From UHGV virus genome UHGV-1374865: a DNA stretch of 37,134 nucleotides, one strand, 5' to 3'. The first letter of the stretch is position 1, and the number at the start of each line of letters is the position of its first letter. Source of the DNA: a virus. Below are positions 20,801 to 34,438 of the stretch, one piece after another. Under the pieces are notes generated by a model that had not been told where the DNA came from, did no database searches, and saw only the letters and a program-made list of their open reading frames with translations. The position numbers and the translations under genes were made by a program.

Positions 20801-22333
20801 TTATTTCGGTACTTTCGGGTAAACGTCAATAGTGAATTCGGAGTTTTTCTGATTCTTCTTGTTCCGTTTTGTTTTGGTCAGTATAATTCTGTCAATAAGC
20901 TGTCTCAATGCGCTGTTCTTTTCTGGGACAGTCAGAGATCCCCACTCGCTTAATAAATTCTTGCATTTCGGGACGAAATTCTTCCGGTTAGTCTGTCTTG
21001 CGATTATGGTATGCAAGTCTTCCTGAGCGGTAGCGATGTTGTTCATGCAGTCTCTGATCCGCTGCTCCAACGCATTGGATCGTTCGATGAAAATCTCTTT
21101 CGTGTAAATTCCCTGCTCTAAAAAATCGAATAAGGATTCTCGCTGTTTTAAAAGAGTCTGATGCTCTGTTTCAAAATTCGTGACGATCATTTCTTTTGCA
21201 GCAATGGCAGCAGCGTCTTCCTCATGAGTGTCGGTAAATTCATACTTAACGATGTAGTCTTTCAGCCATTCAAGCAGAGCCTCTTCCAGTTCATCGATTC
21301 GGATCCCGACGGTGGAACATTCGGTATACTGGCAGATCAGCACATCATAAGGCGTTTTTGTCTGCGCTGTTTTGCGGACCATAAGTCGGCCACATTGAGA
21401 GCAGCGAACCAAACCGGCAAATAGATTCTGAATCGGTCTGTCATTTCTGACCGGAGAGGAAAAACAGCCTTTTGGCTGATTCGCACGTTTGAATAGGTCT
21501 GTGCTGATGCGTGGCGCCCATGCTGCATCAGCGAGAATGTAATCCGTGGCGTTTGGTCGGGATTTTACCACACGACCATCCTTTACGGCTCTGACCGTTT
21601 TGCGATATCCCCAGCGGACTTTTCCGATGTTGGCCGGATTTGAGATAATACCCTTGAGGGTGGAGGGGGAGAATGGCTTTCCACTCCTTGCAAGAATCCC
21701 CATGTTGGTCATGTAAGTGCAGGCTTTCTGATATCCATACTGTTTATTTCCACACAGATCATACATTAGATCAAGAACCGGCGCCTCTGTTTGGCTGGGA
21801 GTAAGAGAATAGTGTTTTCCATCCGGTGCAATGATACGTTCCCATCCATAAGGGGCAACATTGCCGACATAATAACCATCAGAACTGGAACGTTCCCTGC
21901 CACGCTGCATTCGGCGCTTGATTGTGGCGTACTCCCGGCGGCTCATAAATAAACTGAACTCAAAGTACTCATTATCATACTCATTTGCAGGATCGTAGGT
22001 TTTATTCGGTGTTACAATCCGGGTGTTGGAATAAAAAAATGCACGCTGCACACGCCCCTGATCGATCGTATCACCTCTGGCCAGACGATCTACGTCCATT
22101 ACGAGGGCACCATCCCACATACAGGCTTCTACCTCAGAGAGGACTTGCGTCATGACTGGGCGGGCATCAATACTGTCTCCGGACACAACTTCCCGGTAAA
22201 TCGCACCGATCGGAAGAGAGAGAGTCTTTGCCAACTCTAACAGGGTAGTAATGTGGCGTTCCAGAACATCAATCCCTAGCGCTTCCAGTTCGGCGTCTTT
22301 TCTTGACTTTCGTGCGTAGATAAAATAAGACAT
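20801..22333 (-). CDS. int: Large serine recombinase (phage integrase).
   Basis: N-terminal resolvase domain with catalytic Ser in FIYARKSRKD. Recombinase domain, zinc ribbon (CSQCG...CQYTEC) and coiled coil. 510 aa. Confidence 0.85.
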   Translation of the reverse strand: MSYFIYARKSRKDAELEALGIDVLERHITTLLELAKTLSLPIGAIYREVVSGDSIDARPVMTQVLSEVEACMWDGALVMDVDRLARGDTIDQGRVQRAFFYSNTRIVTPNKTYDPANEYDNEYFEFSLFMSRREYATIKRRMQRGRERSSSDGYYVGNVAPYGWERIIAPDGKHYSLTPSQTEAPVLDLMYDLCGNKQYGYQKACTYMTNMGILARSGKPFSPSTLKGIISNPANIGKVRWGYRKTVRAVKDGRVVKSRPNATDYILADAAWAPRISTDLFKRANQPKGCFSSPVRNDRPIQNLFAGLVRCSQCGRLMVRKTAQTKTPYDVLICQYTECSTVGIRIDELEEALLEWLKDYIVKYEFTDTHEEDAAAIAAKEMIVTNFETEHQTLLKQRESLFDFLEQGIYTKEIFIERSNALEQRIRDCMNNIATAQEDLHTIIARQTNRKNFVPKCKNLLSEWGSLTVPEKNSALRQLIDRIILTKTKRNKKNQKNSEFTIDVYPKVPK

Positions 22334-23664: not shown

Positions 23665-23684
23665 GGGAAACCCTAGTCTTTTTT
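23661..23684 (+). terminator. Intrinsic terminator CTAGGG-GAAA-CCCTAG + TCTTTTTT. Overlaps the stop of the minus-strand repressor gene.
   Basis: A 6-bp perfect stem with a GNRA-like loop followed by a T-run. Confidence 0.6.
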
Positions 23685-24056
23685 AATTAAGCTCTCTGCG
23701 AGCTTTTCTAGGACATCCCATTCACTTTCATCCAGCTTTGCAAGAGCTTCTACTAATCTTTTTTTAAATGTATCATTTTCCATTATAAGATCAGCAGCAA
23801 AGTCTGTAATCAACTGGTCTCTTGTTAATTGGATAAACATTTCACCGTTTCCGGTTCTTAACCATTCTTCGTTCACATTGAACTCTTTACAAATCAACTT
23901 ATATAAGGATTCTTTTTGATCTGGGCGTTTCAAGCGATCGTATTCTATATTAACAATAACGCTTTCACTGACGCCAAGCCTTTCTCCAAAAACTCTCCTG
24001 GACATACTTAAGTCTTTTCTTAAGATTTCAATTCTTTCTCCTATATTTAATTCCAA
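23673..24056 (-). CDS. CI-like repressor (XRE HTH, 127 aa). TTG start with AAGGAGG RBS.
   Basis: N-terminal HTH (MSRRVFGERLGVSESVIVNIE). Divergent from the early operon. Its promoter overlaps a palindromic operator. Confidence 0.7.
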   Translation of the reverse strand: MELNIGERIEILRKDLSMSRRVFGERLGVSESVIVNIEYDRLKRPDQKESLYKLICKEFNVNEEWLRTGNGEMFIQLTRDQLITDFAADLIMENDTFKKRLVEALAKLDESEWDVLEKLAESLIKKD

Positions 24057-24079: not shown

Positions 24080-24185
24080 AGTATATCATTATTATACTTG
24101 TTAGTCAACAAGAAAAATATTTAATTTTTTTAAAAATCTTATTGACAAACAAAATAAAACGAGTTATGATTTGTTCATCAACAAG
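24080..24185. promoter_or_regulatory. Genetic switch region with two divergent promoters and two copies of an 18-bp operator. P-cI on the minus strand is TTGACT-17-TATACT. P-early on the plus strand is TTGACA-17-TATGAT (~24142-24170). The operators are TTGTTAGTCAACAAGAAA at ~24098 and TTGTTCATCAACAAGAAA at ~24170.
   Basis: Seen directly. The near-identical operators (palindromic arms CTTGTT/AACAAG) overlap the -35 of the minus-strand promoter and the -10/+1 of the plus-strand promoter. Confidence 0.55.
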
Positions 24186-26383: not shown

Positions 26384-27022
26384 ATGAAAAAATTTGAATT
26401 AACCAGTGAATTTGTAACTTTTTTAGGAAAGAAGCTCTTTAGAATCAAGGCTCTTGTGTCGTTTGGTGATGTAGTAGAGGGAGAATTAGGCGGATTCGTA
26501 GAAAAAGAAGAAAACCTTGATCAGTCCGGTAACGCTTGGGTATACGGTGACGCTAAGGTATTCGGTGACGCTTGGGTATTCGGTGGCGCTAAGGTATACG
26601 GTGACGCTCGGGTATTCGGTGACGCTCAGGTACACGGTAACGCTTGGGTATTCGGTGACGCTCAGGTACACGGTAACGCTTGGGTATACGGTGACGCTCG
26701 GGTATACGGTGACGCTTGGGTATACGGTGACGCTAAGGTATTCGGTGACGCTTGGGTATTCGGTGGCGCTAAGGTATACGGTGACGCTCAGATACAATGC
26801 TGCCGTGATTATTCTGCTACAAGTTGTTTTGGATCAGAAAATAGGGCGACAACATTTTTCCGCACGAAAAATGAAGGAATCAGCGTGAGATGTGGATGTT
26901 TTTACGGAACACTGTCGGAATTTAGAGAAAAGGTGAAAGAACGCCACGGAGACAGCCGACTGGCAAAGGAATATTTGATGCTGGCAGATTTGATGGAGTT
27001 TAGATTATCCAAGGATGAGTAG
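26384..27022 (+). CDS. Hexapeptide-repeat (predicted beta-solenoid) protein with a Cys-rich C-terminal domain. Function unknown.
   Basis: AAAGGAGAG RBS. Fifteen consecutive 6-aa repeats G(D/N)A(W/K/R/Q)V(Y/F/H), followed by CCRDY...SCFG...VRCGCFYG. Confidence 0.8.
   Translation: MKKFELTSEFVTFLGKKLFRIKALVSFGDVVEGELGGFVEKEENLDQSGNAWVYGDAKVFGDAWVFGGAKVYGDARVFGDAQVHGNAWVFGDAQVHGNAWVYGDARVYGDAWVYGDAKVFGDAWVFGGAKVYGDAQIQCCRDYSATSCFGSENRATTFFRTKNEGISVRCGCFYGTLSEFREKVKERHGDSRLAKEYLMLADLMEFRLSKDE
26528..26797. repeat. Near-perfect 18-bp tandem DNA repeat, 15 units (GGTGACGCTNNGGTATWC), with a 54-bp higher-order duplication.
   Basis: Seen directly. Units 2-4 (26546-26599) are identical to units 12-14 (26726-26779). 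Every unit preserves the reading frame. Confidence 0.9.
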
Positions 27023-28880: not shown

Positions 28881-29390
28881 ATGGATATACAGATTGACAG
28901 CAGGGAAAAAGCAAGGGCGATTCGAAAGATCGTGAAGACTTTTGATGATAATGGAGTCAAGCATTTTTCCAGTAAATTATTAGTTGGGGATTACATGTCT
29001 TTGGACAATCCCCGGCTCATAATCGACAGAAAGCAAAATCTCCAAGAGTTATGCGGAAATGTCTGCCAGCAGCACGAAAGATTTAAAAGGGAACTGCTTA
29101 AGGCTATGGATGCAGGAATACAGTTGATCATACTGATTGAGCACGGGAATGATATCAAAAGCATCGAGGATGTGTATTTTTGGAAAAATCCAAGAAAACA
29201 TGAAGTACGATGGCGCACTGTGAATGGAAAGAAGGAGAGGTATGTAGCATCTCCTAAAGCAGTCGATGGGAATCAGCTATACAAGTCCCTTTGCACAATT
29301 AGAGATCGGTATAACGTGAGGTTTGAATTCTGTGAGAAGAATGATACCGGAAAGAAAATTATTGAGTTATTGAGCGAAAGACATGAATAG
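28881..29390 (+). CDS. ERCC4-type nuclease-like protein (possible Holliday-junction / branched-DNA nuclease).
   Basis: QIDSREK ... VGDYMS ... IIDRK resembles the ERCC4 motif pattern (GDxn-ERKx3D variant). ~169 aa. Confidence 0.45.
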   Translation: MDIQIDSREKARAIRKIVKTFDDNGVKHFSSKLLVGDYMSLDNPRLIIDRKQNLQELCGNVCQQHERFKRELLKAMDAGIQLIILIEHGNDIKSIEDVYFWKNPRKHEVRWRTVNGKKERYVASPKAVDGNQLYKSLCTIRDRYNVRFEFCEKNDTGKKIIELLSERHE

Positions 29391-29874
29391 AGAAGAGATT
29401 AAACATTCATACAGCATGAGGGAGATTGTGGAGAGATATGGGTTCCATGTGAATCGGGCGGGGTTTGTTCACTGCCCGTTCCACAAGGGAGACAAGGGAG
29501 CTTCATTGAAAATCTACCCAGACAGCTTCCATTGTTTCGGATGCGGAACAAATGGAGATATCTTTACATTCGTACAGCTAATTGATCATGTCGATTTCAA
29601 AGAAGCGTTCCAGAGTCTTGGAGGAACTTATGAAAAGCCGACATTCCAGTCGAAATTGGCGATATATAGAAGCAGGAAGAAGGCAGAGCAGAGAAAGCGA
29701 GAAGAGGAAAAGCTCCGGAGAAAAAGAGAGCTGAATAACGTTCTGATTGATGTGTACCGCGATTATATGAATAAGTCGGAACCATTCAGTGACGTCTGGT
29801 GCGATTGTTGCAATGCTCTGCAATATCAGTTGTACTTATACGAAATATTAAACGAGAAGGAGGCGAGAAAGTGA
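29383..29874 (+). CDS. Primase zinc-finger (zf-CHC2) domain protein.
   Basis: CPFHKGDKGASLKIYPDSFHCFGCGTNGD is a CHC2 zinc-finger signature. The basic C-terminal tail overlaps the next gene by GTGA. Confidence 0.7.
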   Translation: MNREEIKHSYSMREIVERYGFHVNRAGFVHCPFHKGDKGASLKIYPDSFHCFGCGTNGDIFTFVQLIDHVDFKEAFQSLGGTYEKPTFQSKLAIYRSRKKAEQRKREEEKLRRKRELNNVLIDVYRDYMNKSEPFSDVWCDCCNALQYQLYLYEILNEKEARK

Positions 29875-31739
29875 AAGAAATAAACGAATTTGATGCAGAC
29901 AGCATACTGGATGATGAAGTTTTCATCGAATTATTTGAAATGGAAGATCCGATTCTCCGATCAAAAACAAAAGTGCAGCTTATCAGAAGAGCGAAACAGC
30001 TGGGCGTCAAGTCAGATTTTGAAGAGATTTTGAAAGGATACAATCAGGCTGACCGAGAAATGAAGAGACAGGAACGGGAAAACAGAACTGTTTGCACAGT
30101 AGATAACTATACGAATTTCACAGGACCTCACGATCGTATGTATTGCGGCGCCTGGATTGCGGATGATCGCGGCGTGTTCGCACAGAATTCCGGAAGGGTT
30201 GATGAAGTGGCTTGCTACCACCCAATCCTGCCAGTAGAGCGGCTGCGAAACTTAGAGACCGGGGAAGAGCAAATAAAACTGTCGTACAGGCGAAATAACC
30301 AGTGGCACGATATTGTGGTCCCAAAAACGATGATCACATCGGCGAATAAGATCGTGGCATTATCAGGAAGAGGGATTGCAGTTACGTCAGAAAATGCAAA
30401 ATTACTGGTCAAGTATCTGGCAGACGTAGAAAATGGAAATGATGACTACATAGATGTACAATATTCCACCAGTAAACTTGGATGGATAAATGACCAGTTT
30501 ATCCCCTATGATACAGATATCGTTTTTGACGGAGATAATCGGTTTAAACAGACTTTCGAGAGTGTTTCCGAGCATGGAAGTTTTGATGTGTGGCTAAATC
30601 ATATTCGGGAGTTGCGGTCATCTGGAAGAATGGAAGTGAAATTCTTATTGGCAGCTTCATTTTCCAGTGTACTGGTTCATGTTCTTGGTGGACTTCCATT
30701 TTTTGTCGATCTGTGGGGAGAGACAGAGGGAGGAAAGACGGTATCTTTAATGGTCGCAGCTTCCGTGTGGGCGAATCCAGACGAAAGCAGATATATTGGA
30801 GACTTCAAAACAACGGATGTTGCACTGGAAGCGAAAGCGGATATGTTAAATAATTTACCCATGTTTCTGGATGATACAAGCAAAACCTCCGCAAGAATCA
30901 GGGATAACTTTGAGGGAATTGTTTATGATCTGTGCTCTGGAAAAGGAAAGAGCCGGTCAAACAAAGACCTCGGAATCAATCGAGAGAATCGGTGGCGGAA
31001 CGTAATGATCTGCAATGGTGAGAGACCGCTTAGCAGCTACGTCAGTCAGGGCGGTGCAATCAACAGGATTCTGGAGGTTGAGTGTGGCGAGAAAATCTAT
31101 CAGGATCCGCAGAAGACAGCGGAAACGGTAAAACGGAATTACGGTCACGCAGGTAGGAAATTTGTGGAGATCATCAAAGAAATGGGAGAAGATGAAATTC
31201 GTTCTATCCAGAAAGAGTTTCAGAAGGAGTTATTCAACACGGACAAGATGCAGAAGCAGAGTATTTCACTTTCCATCGTTCTGACAGCCGATAAAATAGC
31301 CACGGATCTAATTTTTAAGGATGGACAGTATATTTCTATGGACGAAGCGAAACAGGTGCTTATAGACCGAAATGAGCTGTCTGACAATGAGCGGTGCTAC
31401 CAATATATCCTTGATAAAATCGCAATGAACAGCCAGAGATTTGATGTGTCTTCAAATTGTGAAAAATGGGGAATTATTGAGGACGGGTACGCAGTAATTT
31501 ACGGACAGGCATTTAAGGAAATCTGCGAATCTGGGAAATTCTCAAAAAAGTCCTTCCTGTCATGGGCTGCAAAGAAAGGCGTTATCCAGCAGGACAGCAG
31601 GGGAAATCCGACAAGGCAAAAAAAGATTGATGGGAAGAATTCAAGATGCGTGTTTTTGCGACTTGAATCGGAAGAAAATGTAGATAATGACGGGTTTAAA
31701 AGTATCGATGAGACACAGGAGAAACTGCCGTTTGAGTAG
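29871..31739 (+). CDS. DUF927-like primase/helicase NTPase (replication initiator).
   Basis: GTG start with AAGGAGG RBS. Walker A-like GETEGGKT. A 622-aa protein of the kind that partners zf-CHC2 proteins in phage/plasmid replication modules. Followed directly by an iteron region. Confidence 0.55.
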   Translation: MKEINEFDADSILDDEVFIELFEMEDPILRSKTKVQLIRRAKQLGVKSDFEEILKGYNQADREMKRQERENRTVCTVDNYTNFTGPHDRMYCGAWIADDRGVFAQNSGRVDEVACYHPILPVERLRNLETGEEQIKLSYRRNNQWHDIVVPKTMITSANKIVALSGRGIAVTSENAKLLVKYLADVENGNDDYIDVQYSTSKLGWINDQFIPYDTDIVFDGDNRFKQTFESVSEHGSFDVWLNHIRELRSSGRMEVKFLLAASFSSVLVHVLGGLPFFVDLWGETEGGKTVSLMVAASVWANPDESRYIGDFKTTDVALEAKADMLNNLPMFLDDTSKTSARIRDNFEGIVYDLCSGKGKSRSNKDLGINRENRWRNVMICNGERPLSSYVSQGGAINRILEVECGEKIYQDPQKTAETVKRNYGHAGRKFVEIIKEMGEDEIRSIQKEFQKELFNTDKMQKQSISLSIVLTADKIATDLIFKDGQYISMDEAKQVLIDRNELSDNERCYQYILDKIAMNSQRFDVSSNCEKWGIIEDGYAVIYGQAFKEICESGKFSKKSFLSWAAKKGVIQQDSRGNPTRQKKIDGKNSRCVFLRLESEENVDNDGFKSIDETQEKLPFE

Positions 31740-31740
31740 T

Positions 31741-31960
31741 ATGGTAACAAAAGTAGCAAGGTAACAACAGGAAATTGCACTATATATAAAGAATAAAAAT
31801 GCGAGAAATCCAAAAAATATGAAGTCTATATATAGATTAAAAATCATTGTTACTTTTGTTACCAACCTCAAAAACCTGTCAACCATGCTGGTTTGATAGG
31901 GTAACAGACTTTTGTTACCGGAAGAAAAATTTTGTTGCTTTGTTACGAAGAGGGTAGTGT
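31741..31960. repeat. Candidate origin of replication: eight GGTAACA/TGTTACC iterons in direct and inverted orientation flanking an AT-rich core.
   Basis: Seen directly. GGTAACA lies at ~31743, 31760 and 31899. TGTTAC(C) lies at ~31848, 31857, 31913, 31933 and 31941. AT-rich TATATATAAAGAATAAAAAT...TATATATAGATTAAAAAT lies between them. Confidence 0.55.
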
Positions 31961-32164
31961 ATGCACGAAAAAATAACAGATATCCAGAATTCGTTCTGGA
32001 AAGCATATAAAAATTATAAGTGTACCGGCTCAATGAGTCAATACAATGCAGATGTCGATGGGATTATTGAGAAGTACAGGGATGATCATGCTATGTTGAA
32101 TTTCTGCAAGAACTTGGCAATATCATGGGCGCCGGTTATTAATGAAATGAAAGAAGATGATTAA
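31961..32164 (+). CDS. Hypothetical 67-aa protein.
   Basis: RBS AGAGGGTAG. Confidence 0.5.
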   Translation: MHEKITDIQNSFWKAYKNYKCTGSMSQYNADVDGIIEKYRDDHAMLNFCKNLAISWAPVINEMKEDD

Positions 32165-32500
32165 ATGCAAGAAAGAAAAAGGGATTTATACGAGCCGTAT
32201 TTTGACGAAATAAAGCAAATGCTTGAAGATGGGTGCACAATCACTCATATACACAAAGAAATTGCGAAAAAGAGCGGAATTGACGCCAATATTAAGACGA
32301 TGAAGCGTTTTATGAGAGAAAAAGGCTTAATCCAAGAATCGGAGTATGAAAAGACCGAAATCAATAAATTGATAAAGGATAAGTTTAAAGGGATCGGTGA
32401 ATACATGGATTTTTATGAGCGCTGGGTCAAGCAGAGTTGCAGCCTAAACCGCACAATCCAGAATCCAAACCGGATATTGATGCGGAGGTATTTACAGTAG
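32165..32500 (+). CDS. Hypothetical protein with an HTH-like segment (CTITHIHKEIAKKSGIDANIKTMKRFM).
   Basis: 111-aa ORF. The HTH call is pattern-based only. Confidence 0.45.
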   Translation: MQERKRDLYEPYFDEIKQMLEDGCTITHIHKEIAKKSGIDANIKTMKRFMREKGLIQESEYEKTEINKLIKDKFKGIGEYMDFYERWVKQSCSLNRTIQNPNRILMRRYLQ

Positions 32501-34024: not shown

Positions 34025-34438
34025 GTGATGTCAAGTCCCAAAGGCTTTATTTTATATCGAATTTGGTACGGAAATTGTCTGGCGTATATTGGAAGAACCA
34101 AGCAACCATTACAAGCTAGGATTAGAGGACATATGTTTGCGAAACCAATGCACAGAGCAATAGATATCCATAATGTAACGAAGATTGAGTACACAGAGTT
34201 TCCAACAGAAGCAGATATGAACCTGTATGAAATATATTACATAAATCTGTGGAAACCACCGTTAAATGTGGATGATAAAGCAAGAGACAATCTATCTATT
34301 ACACTACCTGATAAAAAATGGGATGAATTCATTCCGGCAAATTGGGTTAATTGGAAAAAAGAAATAAGTAAAGACAACAGCGGAGTTGCTTTGTGGCATA
34401 GATTAAGAAATGAAAAAGCGTTGAGAGGAGTGGAATAA
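34025..34438 (+). CDS. GIY-YIG domain protein.
   Basis: GFILYRIWYGNCLAYIGRT...R..H resembles the GIY ... YIG motif pair. RBS GGAGGTGGAGTG. Confidence 0.45.
   Translation: MMSSPKGFILYRIWYGNCLAYIGRTKQPLQARIRGHMFAKPMHRAIDIHNVTKIEYTEFPTEADMNLYEIYYINLWKPPLNVDDKARDNLSITLPDKKWDEFIPANWVNWKKEISKDNSGVALWHRLRNEKALRGVE

What the first reader, a model, noticed from the sequence alone, without database searches (positions are those of the whole stretch)
31741..31960. Iteron-type replication origin immediately downstream of the primase/NTPase gene
Eight copies of GGTAACA / TGTTACC in both orientations, including a 7-bp inverted pair spaced 7 bp apart and a direct pair spaced 17 bp apart. They flank a ~60-bp AT-rich stretch (TATATATAAAGAATAAAAAT...TATATATAGATTAAAAAT). 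This is the signature of an initiator-binding origin plus a DNA-unwinding element. It sits just after the DUF927-like NTPase, which is the likely initiator.
Basis: seen in the sequence. Interest (0 to 1): 0.55.

Follow-up and report, generated by a model that had tools for sequence, protein, structure and literature searches.

The report
SaPI-type phage replication origin
The 221-base gap after the helicase gene of this gut-bacterium (Ruminococcus gnavus-type) phage is very probably its replication origin, built like the origins of staphylococcal pathogenicity islands: short repeats on both sides of an AT-rich core, apparently read by the tail domain of the helicase.

Summary
Five of the window's six exact GGTAACA copies lie in 31743-31919. 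Counting GTAACAA with up to one mismatch gives nine sites in three groups.

The upstream gene encodes a DUF927 helicase with a C-terminal Cch-type winged helix. It is homologous to a PDB chain named 'Pathogenicity island protein' (8tch) and to SCCmec Cch.

The layout matches the published SaPI/PICI origin: iterons start 4 nt after the stop codon, and two convergent sets flank an 83-bp, 78% AT gap.

Of 174 related phage and prophage loci, 160 show the same layout. The iteron word varies (GTAACA, GTAACC, GTTACA, GTTACC).

Phages more than 90% identical on both flanks carry different iteron words, and only the last ~100 helicase residues plus the intergenic region differ. That makes a ~500-bp cassette. 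Helicase residues 575 and 579 track iteron bases 3 and 6.

No neighbouring protein other than the helicase C-terminal domain co-varies with the iteron word. GC skew is uninformative here.

Verdict: a new member of a known kind, a self-loading-helicase origin in a full-size phage. No binding or replication data exist, and physical linkage is a caveat for the covariation.

The parts
29383..29874 (+). 163-aa CHC2 zinc-ribbon ('primase-like') protein. It sits in the position of pri in SaPI pri-rep-ori modules, and its stop overlaps the helicase ATG (ATGA).
   Evidence: Pfam Zn_ribbon_DnaG E 2.6e-14, residues 4-81 only. PHROG hits to primase families cover only the zinc finger. No catalytic primase domain was detected.
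29871..31739 (+). 622-aa DUF927 helicase with a C-terminal Cch-type winged helix. It is the proposed self-loading initiator-helicase (Rep).
   Evidence: Pfam DUF927 E 3.9e-40 (residues 105-369) and HTH_56 E 4.1e-20 (residues 506-601). PHROG 8841 E 8e-199. phmmer to PDB 8tch_A 'Pathogenicity island protein' E 1.6e-30 and to 5dgk_A Cch 'Active helicase' E 1.3e-10.
31593..31643 (+). Codons for helicase residues 575-591 (DSRGNPTRQKKIDGKNS), the proposed DNA-reading segment just after the presumed recognition helix.
   Evidence: The highest mutual-information columns of a 560-column alignment (123 unique C-terminal domains) for iteron base 3 are residues 590, 575 and 583. For base 6 they are 579 and 580. 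Signatures by iteron type: D575/N579 with GTAACA, E575/K or R579 with GTAACC, Q575/Q579 with GTTACA, Q575/R579 with GTTACC.
31480..31960 (.). Exchangeable specificity cassette: the helicase C-terminal domain plus the whole intergenic origin.
   Evidence: Against L017, L019 and L020 the 60-nt blocks are mostly 83-100% identical from 30761 to ~31420 and mostly 83-98% for at least 180 nt after 31961. They are only 38-71% identical in 31481-31960. The right edge falls exactly at the next gene's ATG.
31743..31767 (+). Left iteron set, three tandem sites reading toward the centre: GGTAACAA (31743-50), AGTAGCAA (31752-59, degenerate), GGTAACAA (31760-67).
   Evidence: The first iteron begins 4 nt after the helicase stop codon. 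In the family, left sets hold 2-4 sites with core spacing of 7-9 bp.
31768..31846 (.). AT-rich centre, the proposed melting region. It holds symmetric TATATA boxes (CTATATATA 31780-88, TATATATAG 31827-35) and a 25-nt direct repeat (31776-31800, 31820-31844).
   Evidence: 77% AT, in the top 0.7% of 79-bp windows. Repeats D1 and I8. The TATATA box and the second TATAG are conserved in an alignment of 135 unique origins, while the rest of the centre varies. The gap between inner cores is 83 bp here; the family median is 83 and the main peak is 81-83 bp.
31847..31863 (-). Right iteron set, two tandem sites reading toward the centre: TTGTTACT (31847-54) and TTGTTACC (31856-63).
   Evidence: Right sets of 2-3 sites with the opposite core occur in 160 of 174 loci.
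31864..31899 (.). 36-bp spacer with a short inverted repeat, AAACC (31873-77) ... GGTTT (31891-95). Its role is unknown.
   Evidence: Partly conserved columns (AAAAAC, GGGTTT) in the family alignment. AAACC-N8-20-GGTTT occurs in 20 of 121 unique loci and in 0 coding controls.
31900..31947 (.). Second iteron cluster: a convergent pair GGTAACAG (31900-07, +) / TTGTTACC (31912-19, -) with a 6-bp gap between the heptamers, then TTGTTGCT (31932-39, -) and TTGTTACG (31940-47, -). It ends 2-3 nt before the downstream ribosome-binding site.
   Evidence: At least 2 core sites in the equivalent position occur in 115 of 121 unique loci. These sites switch word together with the main sets.
31961..32164 (+). 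First downstream gene (67 aa, PHROG 23374, unknown function). It marks the right boundary of the origin and is not the specificity partner.
   Evidence: A 95.5% identical homologue sits next to a different iteron type in L030, GTTACC.

Best explanation
Positions 31740-31960 are the phage's origin of replication. It is of the SaPI/PICI 'self-loading helicase' kind.

**Proposed mechanism**
- The DUF927 helicase encoded immediately upstream binds the 7-8 bp iterons (consensus GGTAACAA, core GTAAC) through its C-terminal winged-helix domain.
- The two convergent iteron sets on either side of the 83-bp AT-rich centre would each nucleate one hexamer.
- The AT-rich centre, with its symmetric TATATA boxes, melts.
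- The helicase loads itself without a separate loader, and priming and host polymerase follow.
- The second iteron cluster (31900-31947) is part of the same unit. It may act as an auxiliary loading or control site.
- The helicase C-terminal domain and the origin form one ~500-bp cassette that is exchanged between otherwise near-identical phages. This sets the specificity of the replicon.

**Shown here**
- The repeats and their non-random clustering.
- Homology of the helicase.
- Recurrence of the architecture in the family.
- Variation of the iteron word.
- Covariation of the word with the C-terminal domain only.
- The cassette boundaries.

**Inferred**
- Binding, melting, double-hexamer loading and origin activity.
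For: **1. The clustering is not chance.** Five of six exact heptamers lie in 177 bp. There are 9 near-copies against 0.8 expected. None of 200 simulations reach the observed cluster.

**2. The helicase is of the right family.** It carries DUF927 and HTH_56. It is homologous to PDB 8tch 'Pathogenicity island protein' (E 1.6e-30) and to SCCmec Cch, 5dgk (E 1.3e-10).

**3. The published SaPI origin definition is matched point by point.** The definition is:
- pri upstream of rep;
- origin immediately 3' of rep;
- 6-12 penta- or hexanucleotide iterons;
- a central AT-rich region;
- at least 2 iterons per side in opposite orientation;
- Rep's C-terminal winged helix reads the iterons.

Sources are PMC9371898, PMC7581432 and PMC6092414.

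**4. The layout recurs across the family.**
- 160 of 174 related loci from phage records, IMG/VR and bacterial genomes have 2-4 GTWAC sites, a 51-129 bp gap (median 83 bp, median 71% AT), then 1-4 (mostly 2-3) sites of the opposite core.
- The layout starts within about 100 bp of the helicase stop in 140 of the 160.

**5. Iterons are conserved while the centre drifts**.

**6. The iteron word varies and all sites of a locus switch together**.

**7. Covariation points to the helicase C-terminal domain.**
- The helicases of L017 and L019 are mostly 92-100% identical to the window's (50-column blocks) up to about residue 510, but 45-61% in the last ~110 residues.
- Among pairs with at least 90% body identity, C-terminal identity has a median of 87% when the iteron type is the same and 61% when it differs.
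- Distant Roseburia phage Jekyll has the same word and the same wing motif, TKQKKIEGKNxRCVFL.

**8. Only the C-terminal domain lacks close homologues next to a different iteron word.**
- Its maximum identity in such loci is 57.7%.
- The zinc-ribbon protein, the helicase body, the ERCC4 nuclease and both downstream ORFs all have homologues at 90% identity or more next to a different word.

**9. The best-associated protein columns cluster in residues 575-591.**
- MI/H there is 0.58-0.78, against at most 0.43 elsewhere.
- They give a two-position code.
- R/K579 pairs with a C:G base pair and N/Q579 with A. By general knowledge of protein-DNA contacts this is chemically sensible.

**10. The cassette has sharp edges.** The right edge is at the next gene's ATG.

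**11. No competing signal was found.** There is no Rfam family, no + strand promoter or terminator, and no DnaA-box cluster in the region.
Against: - There is no experimental evidence of binding, melting or origin firing for this phage or any member of this phage family. The R. gnavus phage papers do not address replication origins.
- The covariation could partly reflect physical linkage. The C-terminal domain and the iterons are adjacent, so one recombination event replaces both. The mutual-information test is not corrected for phylogeny.
- GC skew gives no support, but it is uninformative in this genome.
- The AT-rich centre is only the third most AT-rich locus in the window.
- The upstream 'primase' has only a zinc ribbon detectable, so the priming step is unclear.
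- 14 of 174 loci did not pass my automated architecture test. At least one of them, L028, has a diverged core (TAACC), but I did not inspect them all.
- The structure model of the C-terminal domain was of low confidence (pLDDT 45). The 'wing' assignment therefore rests on Pfam, the alignment to Cch and weak secondary-structure hints.
Confidence: 0.8

Rival explanations
1. The repeats are operator sites for transcriptional or translational control of the downstream genes, or for autoregulation. They would be bound by the helicase C-terminal domain or by another small DNA-binding protein, and would not be where replication starts.
For: The last iteron ends 2-3 nt before the ribosome-binding site of ORF 31961. 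The second cluster has no AT-rich centre of its own. In the phiRg507T2_2 group a small gene annotated 'DNA binding regulatory protein' is inserted just before the repeats.
Against: No + strand promoter-like site lies in 31740-31960. The inserted small gene is absent from the window and from most loci. Downstream ORFs and all neighbours except the helicase C-terminal domain occur at 90% identity or more next to different iteron words. Two convergent sets around a gap of roughly constant length (about 83 bp, AT-rich) immediately 3' of a homologue of a PDB 'Pathogenicity island protein' chain (presumed SaPI Rep) is the published origin layout. A regulatory side-role is not excluded and is compatible with the origin reading.
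Confidence: 0.08
2. The conserved feature is a DNA or RNA hairpin or cruciform formed by the left and right arms, for example a single-strand initiation signal or an RNA element. In that case the joint switching of both arms would be compensatory base-pair change, not a protein code.
For: In the window the arms 31742-31759 and 31847-31864 are 94% complementary. The single strand folds with z = -3.75. Inverted binding sites and a stem give the same covariation signal.
Against: Across 111 unique loci the longest arm-to-arm complementarity (up to 1 mismatch) is bimodal. 53 loci have 12 nt or fewer (about one iteron) and 58 have 13-20 nt. This is what chance register of 8- or 9-bp spacings would give, so a long stem is not conserved. 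Sites are tandemly repeated within each arm, and unequally (3 versus 2). The second cluster switches word too. There is no Rfam match. The association with specific helicase residues is not explained by a stem.
Confidence: 0.04
3. The repeats are a packaging (pac/cos) site or recombination (attP arm-type) site.
For: Repeated short protein-binding sites do occur at such loci (general knowledge).
Against: The terminase-small-subunit-like gene is at 35670-36188 and the serine integrase at 20801-22333. Both are far from the repeats. Serine integrases do not use arm-type sites (general knowledge). The repeats track the helicase gene in 160 of 174 loci regardless of what follows.
Confidence: 0.02
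4. The cluster is a chance clustering of an AT-biased word in an intergenic region.
For: The whole-window count alone is unremarkable: 6 observed against 3.1 expected, and 12 of 100 shuffles reach 6.
Against: The clustering is the signal, not the total. Five of six copies lie in 177 bp. None of 200 simulations reach the 7-copy 6-mer cluster. The same architecture is present in 160 related loci with different words.
Confidence: 0.005

Closest known systems
SaPI / PICI pri-rep-ori replicons (SaPIbov1 / Rep2-type Rep, a DUF927 MCM-like helicase)
   Same: - A helicase homologous to PDB 8tch 'Pathogenicity island protein' (E 1.6e-30), with DUF927 and a C-terminal winged helix.
- A primase-like gene upstream.
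- An origin immediately 3' of the helicase gene.
- 6-12 short iterons in two opposed sets around an AT-rich centre.
- Initiator specificity residing in the C-terminal domain.

Sources: PMC9371898, PMC7581432, PMC6092414.
   Different: - The host element is a complete 37-kb temperate siphophage of Lachnospiraceae, not a satellite island. It has its own integrase, repressor, terminase-like and minor-capsid genes.
- There is an additional conserved iteron cluster downstream of the main origin.
- The upstream 'primase' is only a 163-aa zinc-ribbon protein.
- The iteron word (GTWACMN) and its two-residue code are specific to this family.
[quoted passage not shown] That statement would need widening.
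SCCmec Cch / Cch2 helicases with a downstream putative origin
   Same: - The Cch helicase (5dgk) is a homologue (E 1.3e-10), and the Pfam HTH_56 'Cch helix turn helix' domain is present.
- Cch2 binds direct repeats just downstream of its own gene (PMC7581432).
   Different: - Only three 5-nt direct repeats were found for Cch2, and Cch2 belongs to a different helicase family (D5/SF3).
- No AT-rich centre flanked by opposed sets is described there.
SV40 large T antigen and papillomavirus E1 origins (functional analogy only)
   Same: - Short pentanucleotide-core sites in opposed orientation.
- Adjacent AT-rich and easily melted DNA.
- An initiator that is itself the replicative helicase and assembles as a double hexamer.

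The analogy is drawn in PMC7581432.
   Different: - These are unrelated SF3 helicases.
- The origin-binding domain is N-terminal to the motor.
- They are eukaryotic viruses.
Iteron plasmids (pPS10, RK2, F, R6K) and the phage lambda O/ori
   Same: Repeated initiator-binding sites next to an AT-rich unwinding element.
   Different: - The iterons there are 17-22 bp direct repeats at roughly helical spacing, on one side of the unwinding element.
- The initiator is a Rep_3 or O-type protein that recruits the host DnaB through loaders, often with DnaA boxes (general knowledge; PMC4980987 was listed but not read).
- Here the sites are 7-8 bp, in opposed sets, spaced 7-9 bp apart. The initiator is itself a helicase, and no DnaA-box cluster is present.

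Membership tests
SaPI/PICI-type Rep-ori replicon | The initiator is a helicase homologous to a SaPI Rep type (the SaPIbov1/Rep2 type carries DUF927). | tested here: met
   Pfam DUF927 E 3.9e-40. phmmer to 8tch_A 'Pathogenicity island protein' E 1.6e-30 over residues 106-550. That 8tch is a SaPI Rep is inferred from its name and from PMC7581432; no paper on the entry was found.
SaPI/PICI-type Rep-ori replicon | A C-terminal winged-helix domain that recognises the iterons. | tested here: inconclusive
   The domain is present (HTH_56 E 4.1e-20, residues 506-601). It co-varies with the iteron word. Binding itself was not tested, and the AF2 model of the domain was of low confidence.
SaPI/PICI-type Rep-ori replicon | The origin lies immediately downstream of the rep ORF. 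| tested here: met
   The first iteron starts 4 nt after the stop codon. In the family, 140 of 160 loci start within about 100 bp of the stop, and 15 more start after one inserted small gene.
SaPI/PICI-type Rep-ori replicon | Six to twelve penta- or hexanucleotide iterons. | tested here: met
   Nine sites with a 5-nt invariant core (GTAAC) and a 7-8 nt consensus.
SaPI/PICI-type Rep-ori replicon | A central AT-rich region with at least two iterons on each side pointing in opposite directions. | tested here: met
   Three + sites (31743-67), an 83-bp gap at 78% AT, then two - sites (31847-63).
SaPI/PICI-type Rep-ori replicon | A primase gene (pri) upstream of rep. | tested here: inconclusive
   The upstream 163-aa protein has a DnaG-type CHC2 zinc ribbon only. 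No catalytic domain was detected by Pfam or PHROGs.
SaPI/PICI-type Rep-ori replicon | pri-rep-ori supports autonomous replication, and Rep binds and melts its cognate origin without ATP. | not testable with these tools
   Requires EMSA or footprinting and a replication assay.
PICI (phage-inducible chromosomal island) as an element | A small satellite island lacking most structural genes and dependent on a helper phage. | tested here: not met
   The window is a 37-kb genome about 89% identical over the 3.1-kb replication-module query to the cultured temperate phage phiRg507T2_2. It carries minor-capsid, long virion-module ORFs, integrase, repressor and terminase-like genes. It uses a PICI-type replicon but is not a PICI.
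Plasmid-type iteron origin (Rep_3 / RepA family) | 17-22 bp direct repeats in one orientation, a Rep_3 initiator, DnaA boxes and a unilateral unwinding element. | tested here: not met
   The repeats are 7-8 bp in opposed sets with 7-9 bp spacing. No Rep_3 domain was found in the ten replication-module and neighbouring proteins scanned. There is no DnaA-box cluster at the locus.

The most novel reading that the evidence does not exclude
The pri-rep-ori design has been described as unique to PICI satellites. It may in fact be a mainstream replication module of full-size temperate phages of gut Lachnospiraceae. Supporting numbers are at least 4,718 protein clusters and at least 500 IMG/VR contigs.

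In this family, origin specificity would be set by a simple, readable code. Helicase residue 575 (D/E versus Q) would read iteron base 3 (A versus T). Residue 579 (N/Q versus R/K) would read base 6 (A versus C).

The C-terminal domain plus origin would be traded as a ~500-bp cassette between near-identical phages. This would create replicon specificity groups, which could keep co-resident prophages or satellites from firing or hijacking each other's origins.
Probability: 0.45. Interest if true: 0.6.

Novelty: new member of a known kind. Interest (0 to 1): 0.45.

Why it matters
- **First origin for these phages.** It gives Ruminococcus gnavus and other Lachnospiraceae temperate phages their first concrete candidate replication origin and initiator. 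These phages are of interest for gut-microbiome work, and their papers do not treat replication origins.
- **Evolution of satellite replicons.** It shows that the SaPI/PICI origin design is not confined to satellites. That bears on where satellite replicons came from.
- **A testable recognition rule.** The natural variation yields a two-residue, two-base rule that a few point mutations and gel shifts could confirm. There are four main iteron words, and at least four helicase backbones carry more than one word.
- **Practical use.** A compact helicase-plus-origin cassette could serve as a replicon for genetic tools in Lachnospiraceae, which are hard to manipulate.

Tried and rejected
- **GC and cumulative skew.** It follows transcription direction only, so it was rejected as a test of the origin.
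- **Rfam search of 31400-32300 at E up to 1.** Nothing was found.
- **Promoter and terminator scans.** No + strand signal lies inside the intergenic region. The only hits nearby are on the minus strand inside ORF 31961.
- **DnaA-box search.** There is no cluster at the locus. One 1-mismatch site lies inside the helicase gene.
- **AlphaFold2 of the C-terminal 153 residues without an alignment.** Mean pLDDT was 45, which is unusable except as a weak secondary-structure hint. I did not run fold searches on it.
- **The search for homologous proteins.** The 120 proteins listed were all 90% identical or more, so it gave family size and domain architecture but no diverse alignment for a better model.
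- **Overall C-terminal identity as a predictor of iteron type among distant pairs.** It did not discriminate (0.50 versus 0.51). Only specific columns do.
- **My first automatic placement of the AT-rich centre.** It sometimes picked the second A/T tract. I replaced it with the core-switch method.
- **Literature search for the PDB entry 8TCH.** No paper was found.
- **Hairpin or cruciform reading.** Considered and largely rejected.
Full report
**1. What is in the sequence**

Positions 31740-31960 are the 221-bp gap between the stop codon of ORF 29871-31739 and the ATG of ORF 31961-32164.

Exact GGTAACA/TGTTACC occurs six times in the 37,134-bp window. Five of these fall in 31743-31919. The background density corresponds to 0.006 per 221 bp.

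Taking the word as GTAACAA with up to one mismatch gives nine sites, against 0.8 expected. They are arranged as follows:
- Three tandem sites on the + strand (31743-50, 31752-59 degenerate, 31760-67).
- An AT-rich stretch.
- Two tandem sites on the - strand (31847-54, 31856-63).
- A 36-bp spacer.
- A convergent pair (31900-07 +, 31912-19 -).
- Two more - sites (31932-39 degenerate, 31940-47).

In a scan of all 6-mers, this is the second strongest word cluster in the window. None of 200 first-order Markov simulations reached it.

The 79 bp between the inner sites are 77% AT, against 57.6% for the window. That puts them in the top 0.7% of such windows. They contain a 25-nt direct repeat and a perfect 9-nt inverted repeat, CTATATATA/TATATATAG.

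The corrections are:
- There are five exact copies, not eight.
- The gap in the inverted pair is 6 bp, not 7.
- A degenerate copy lies inside the '17-bp direct pair'.
- The AT-rich gap is about 80 bp, not 60.

**2. Context**

Over the 3.1-kb replication-module query, the window is about 89% identical to the cultured temperate Ruminococcus (Mediterraneibacter) gnavus siphophage phiRg507T2_2.

It carries:
- a serine integrase (20801-22333, minus strand);
- an HTH repressor (23673-24056, minus strand);
- an anti-repressor;
- a replication and recombination module, made of Sak4, an unannotated 223-aa protein, an ERCC4 nuclease, a CHC2 zinc-ribbon protein and a DUF927 helicase;
- small ORFs and a terminase-small-subunit-like gene.

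The gene before the repeats encodes a 622-aa protein with DUF927 (E 3.9e-40) and the 'Cch helix-turn-helix' domain HTH_56 (E 4.1e-20). By sequence it is homologous to PDB 8tch 'Pathogenicity island protein' (E 1.6e-30) and to the SCCmec helicase Cch, 5dgk (E 1.3e-10). No primase domain was detected in it. The zinc-ribbon 'primase-like' protein is a separate 163-aa gene upstream.

**3. Comparison with the published model**

For SaPIs the origin is defined by these features (PMC9371898; PMC7581432; PMC6092414):
- It lies immediately downstream of rep, with pri upstream.
- It has six to twelve penta- or hexanucleotide iterons.
- It has a central AT-rich region with at least two iterons on each side pointing in opposite directions.
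- The iterons are read by the C-terminal winged helix of Rep, which is also the helicase and loads itself, probably as two hexamers.

Every sequence-level item is met here. The iterons on both sides read 5'-GGTAACAA-3' toward the AT-rich centre.

**4. Relatives**

I collected 178 loci encoding a homologue of the helicase. They came from GenBank phages, IMG/VR and one genome per bacterial species. Almost all are Lachnospiraceae or other Clostridia prophages. The protein family has at least 4,718 clusters, and all 120 listed clusters carry DUF927 plus HTH_56.

Of 174 loci with enough downstream sequence:
- The most frequent non-AT 5-mer in the 260 bp after the stop is GTAAC/GTTAC in 89 loci, and a word overlapping it in most of the others. 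The median top count is 8, against 4 in a coding control.
- 160 loci (92%) show 2-4 GTWAC sites, a 51-129 bp gap (median 83 bp, main peak 81-83 bp, median 71% AT), then 1-4 (mostly 2-3) sites of the opposite core.
- The second cluster is present in 115 of 121 unique loci.

An alignment of 135 unique origins shows that the iteron cores, the TATATA box and a few spacer positions are conserved, while the rest drifts. Roseburia phage Jekyll illustrates this. Its helicase is only 62% identical, yet it has the same iterons around a quite different AT-rich centre.

**5. The iteron word varies and tracks the helicase tail**

The word is GTWACMN, with four main types: GTAACA (46 loci), GTAACC (42), GTTACC (40) and GTTACA (27). 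All sites of a locus, including the second cluster, carry the same type.

The 3' flank shows this is a change of word, not an inversion. An example is GTTACAA in L017 at the positions of GTAACAA in the window.

- **Identity profile.** The helicases of L017 (GTTACA) and L019 (GTTACC) are mostly 92-100% identical to the window's, in 50-column blocks, up to about residue 510. They are only 45-61% identical in the last ~110 residues.
- **Mosaic block.** At the DNA level the divergent block runs from about 31480 to exactly 31960. Flanking 60-nt blocks are mostly 83-100% identical from 30761 to ~31420, and mostly 83-98% identical for at least 180 nt after 31961.
- **Close pairs.** Among pairs with at least 90% identical helicase bodies, C-terminal identity has a median of 87% when the iteron type is shared and 61% when it differs.
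- **Neighbouring proteins.** The zinc-ribbon protein, the helicase body, the ERCC4 nuclease, ORF 31961 and ORF 32165 all have homologues at 90% identity or more in loci with a different iteron type. The C-terminal domain does not; its maximum is 57.7%.
- **Mutual information.** Over a 560-column alignment with 123 unique C-terminal domains, the columns most informative about iteron base 3 are residues 590, 575 and 583. Those for base 6 are 579 and 580. All lie within 17 residues of the HTH_56 domain. Their normalised values are 0.58-0.78, against at most 0.43 anywhere else.

The resulting signatures are simple:

| Iteron word | Residue 575 | Residue 579 |
|---|---|---|
| GTAACA | D | N |
| GTAACC | E | K or R |
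| GTTACA | Q | Q |
| GTTACC | Q | R |

Arg/Lys opposite a C:G pair and Asn/Gln opposite A are the usual preferences. That comparison is general knowledge, not tested here. Four of 67 helicase-backbone clusters contain more than one iteron type, so the exchange has happened repeatedly.

**6. Caveats**

- The C-terminal domain and the iterons are physically adjacent. A single recombination event replaces both, and the mutual-information test is not corrected for phylogeny.
- Two observations argue for functional coupling rather than mere hitch-hiking. The signal is concentrated in 17 residues, and the cassette edges are sharp. They do not prove it.
- The structure model of the domain was poor (pLDDT 45).
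- Fourteen loci failed the automated test and were not all inspected.

**7. Rivals**

- **Operator role.** This is not excluded as a side function, since the last iteron abuts the next gene's ribosome-binding site. However, no + strand promoter lies in the region, and no other DNA-binding neighbour co-varies.
- **Hairpin or cruciform.** This would give the same two-arm covariation, and the window's arms do form an 18-nt stem (z = -3.75). Across 111 unique loci, though, arm complementarity is bimodal. About half pair over no more than one iteron, as expected from chance register of 8- and 9-bp spacings.
- **Packaging or attachment site.** This does not fit the positions of the terminase-like and integrase genes.
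- **Chance.** This is excluded.

**8. Verdict**

This is very probably the phage's replication origin, of the SaPI/PICI self-loading-helicase kind, with the DUF927 helicase as initiator (confidence about 0.8).

It is a new member of a known kind rather than a new mechanism. Three things go beyond the textbook case:
- It sits in a full-size temperate phage and in a large family of Lachnospiraceae prophages. [quoted passage not shown]
- A second conserved iteron cluster exists.
- A compact C-terminal-domain-plus-origin cassette carries a readable two-position code.

All functional steps (binding, melting, loading, firing) remain to be shown.

Noticed in passing
L001 3872-4048 (phiRg507T2_2 gp43); also 15 of the 160 loci, with the first iteron about 175-187 bp after the helicase stop: In the phiRg507T2_2 group a 58-aa gene annotated 'DNA binding regulatory protein' is inserted between the helicase gene and the origin. 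Its N-terminus looks ribbon-helix-helix-like to me. Its stop codon is the TAA inside the first iteron (GGTAAC). It is absent from the window. It could be a copy-control or origin regulator.
   Followed up: partly
window 31873-31895: A short inverted repeat, AAACC-N13-GGTTT, lies in the spacer between the right iteron set and the second cluster. AAACC-N8-20-GGTTT occurs in 20 of 121 unique related loci and in none of the coding controls. Matching conserved columns appear in the family alignment. Its role is unknown.
   Followed up: partly
window 32041-32013 and 32000-31983 (minus strand): A strong promoter-like site (TTGACT-17-TATAAT, 11 of 12) lies inside ORF 31961-32164 and points leftward toward the origin. 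A weak terminator-like hairpin follows at once. This might be an origin-directed or antisense transcript, or it might be chance.
   Followed up: no
window 26545-26760, inside ORF 26384-27022: This is the strongest word cluster in the window: nine copies of CGGTGACGCT-type words in about 220 bp. It lies inside a gene whose product matches the YdcK beta-solenoid repeat, so it is a coding tandem repeat, not a binding-site array.
   Followed up: partly
window 29383-29874: The 'primase' of the module is only 163 aa. Only a DnaG-type CHC2 zinc ribbon is detectable (residues 4-81), with no catalytic domain. How priming is done is open. Candidates are the host DnaG, or an undetected activity in this protein or in the helicase N-terminus.
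   Followed up: no
window, whole: DnaA-box-like 9-mers (TTATCCACA with one mismatch) occur 20 times, against 10.35 expected. None of 100 shuffles reached 20. They are scattered over the genome, with no cluster at the proposed origin.
   Followed up: no
window 24082 and 18978 (79-bp windows): Two loci are more AT-rich than the origin centre, at 85% and 84% AT. The first lies between the divergent repressor gene and the best early promoter (24142-24170), so it is probably the lysis-lysogeny switch. The second lies in the low-GC block at 18-19.5 kb.
   Followed up: no
window 34025-34438: A 137-aa ORF with a GIY-YIG nuclease domain (E 3.6e-5) lies among the small ORFs downstream of the origin. It is possibly a homing-endonuclease-like insertion.
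   Followed up: no
L028 4897-5130, and 13 other loci listed: Fourteen related loci failed the automated GTWAC architecture test. In L028 the repeats appear to be TAACC/GGTTA-type with the same overall layout. This suggests further iteron words with a changed core.
   Followed up: partly
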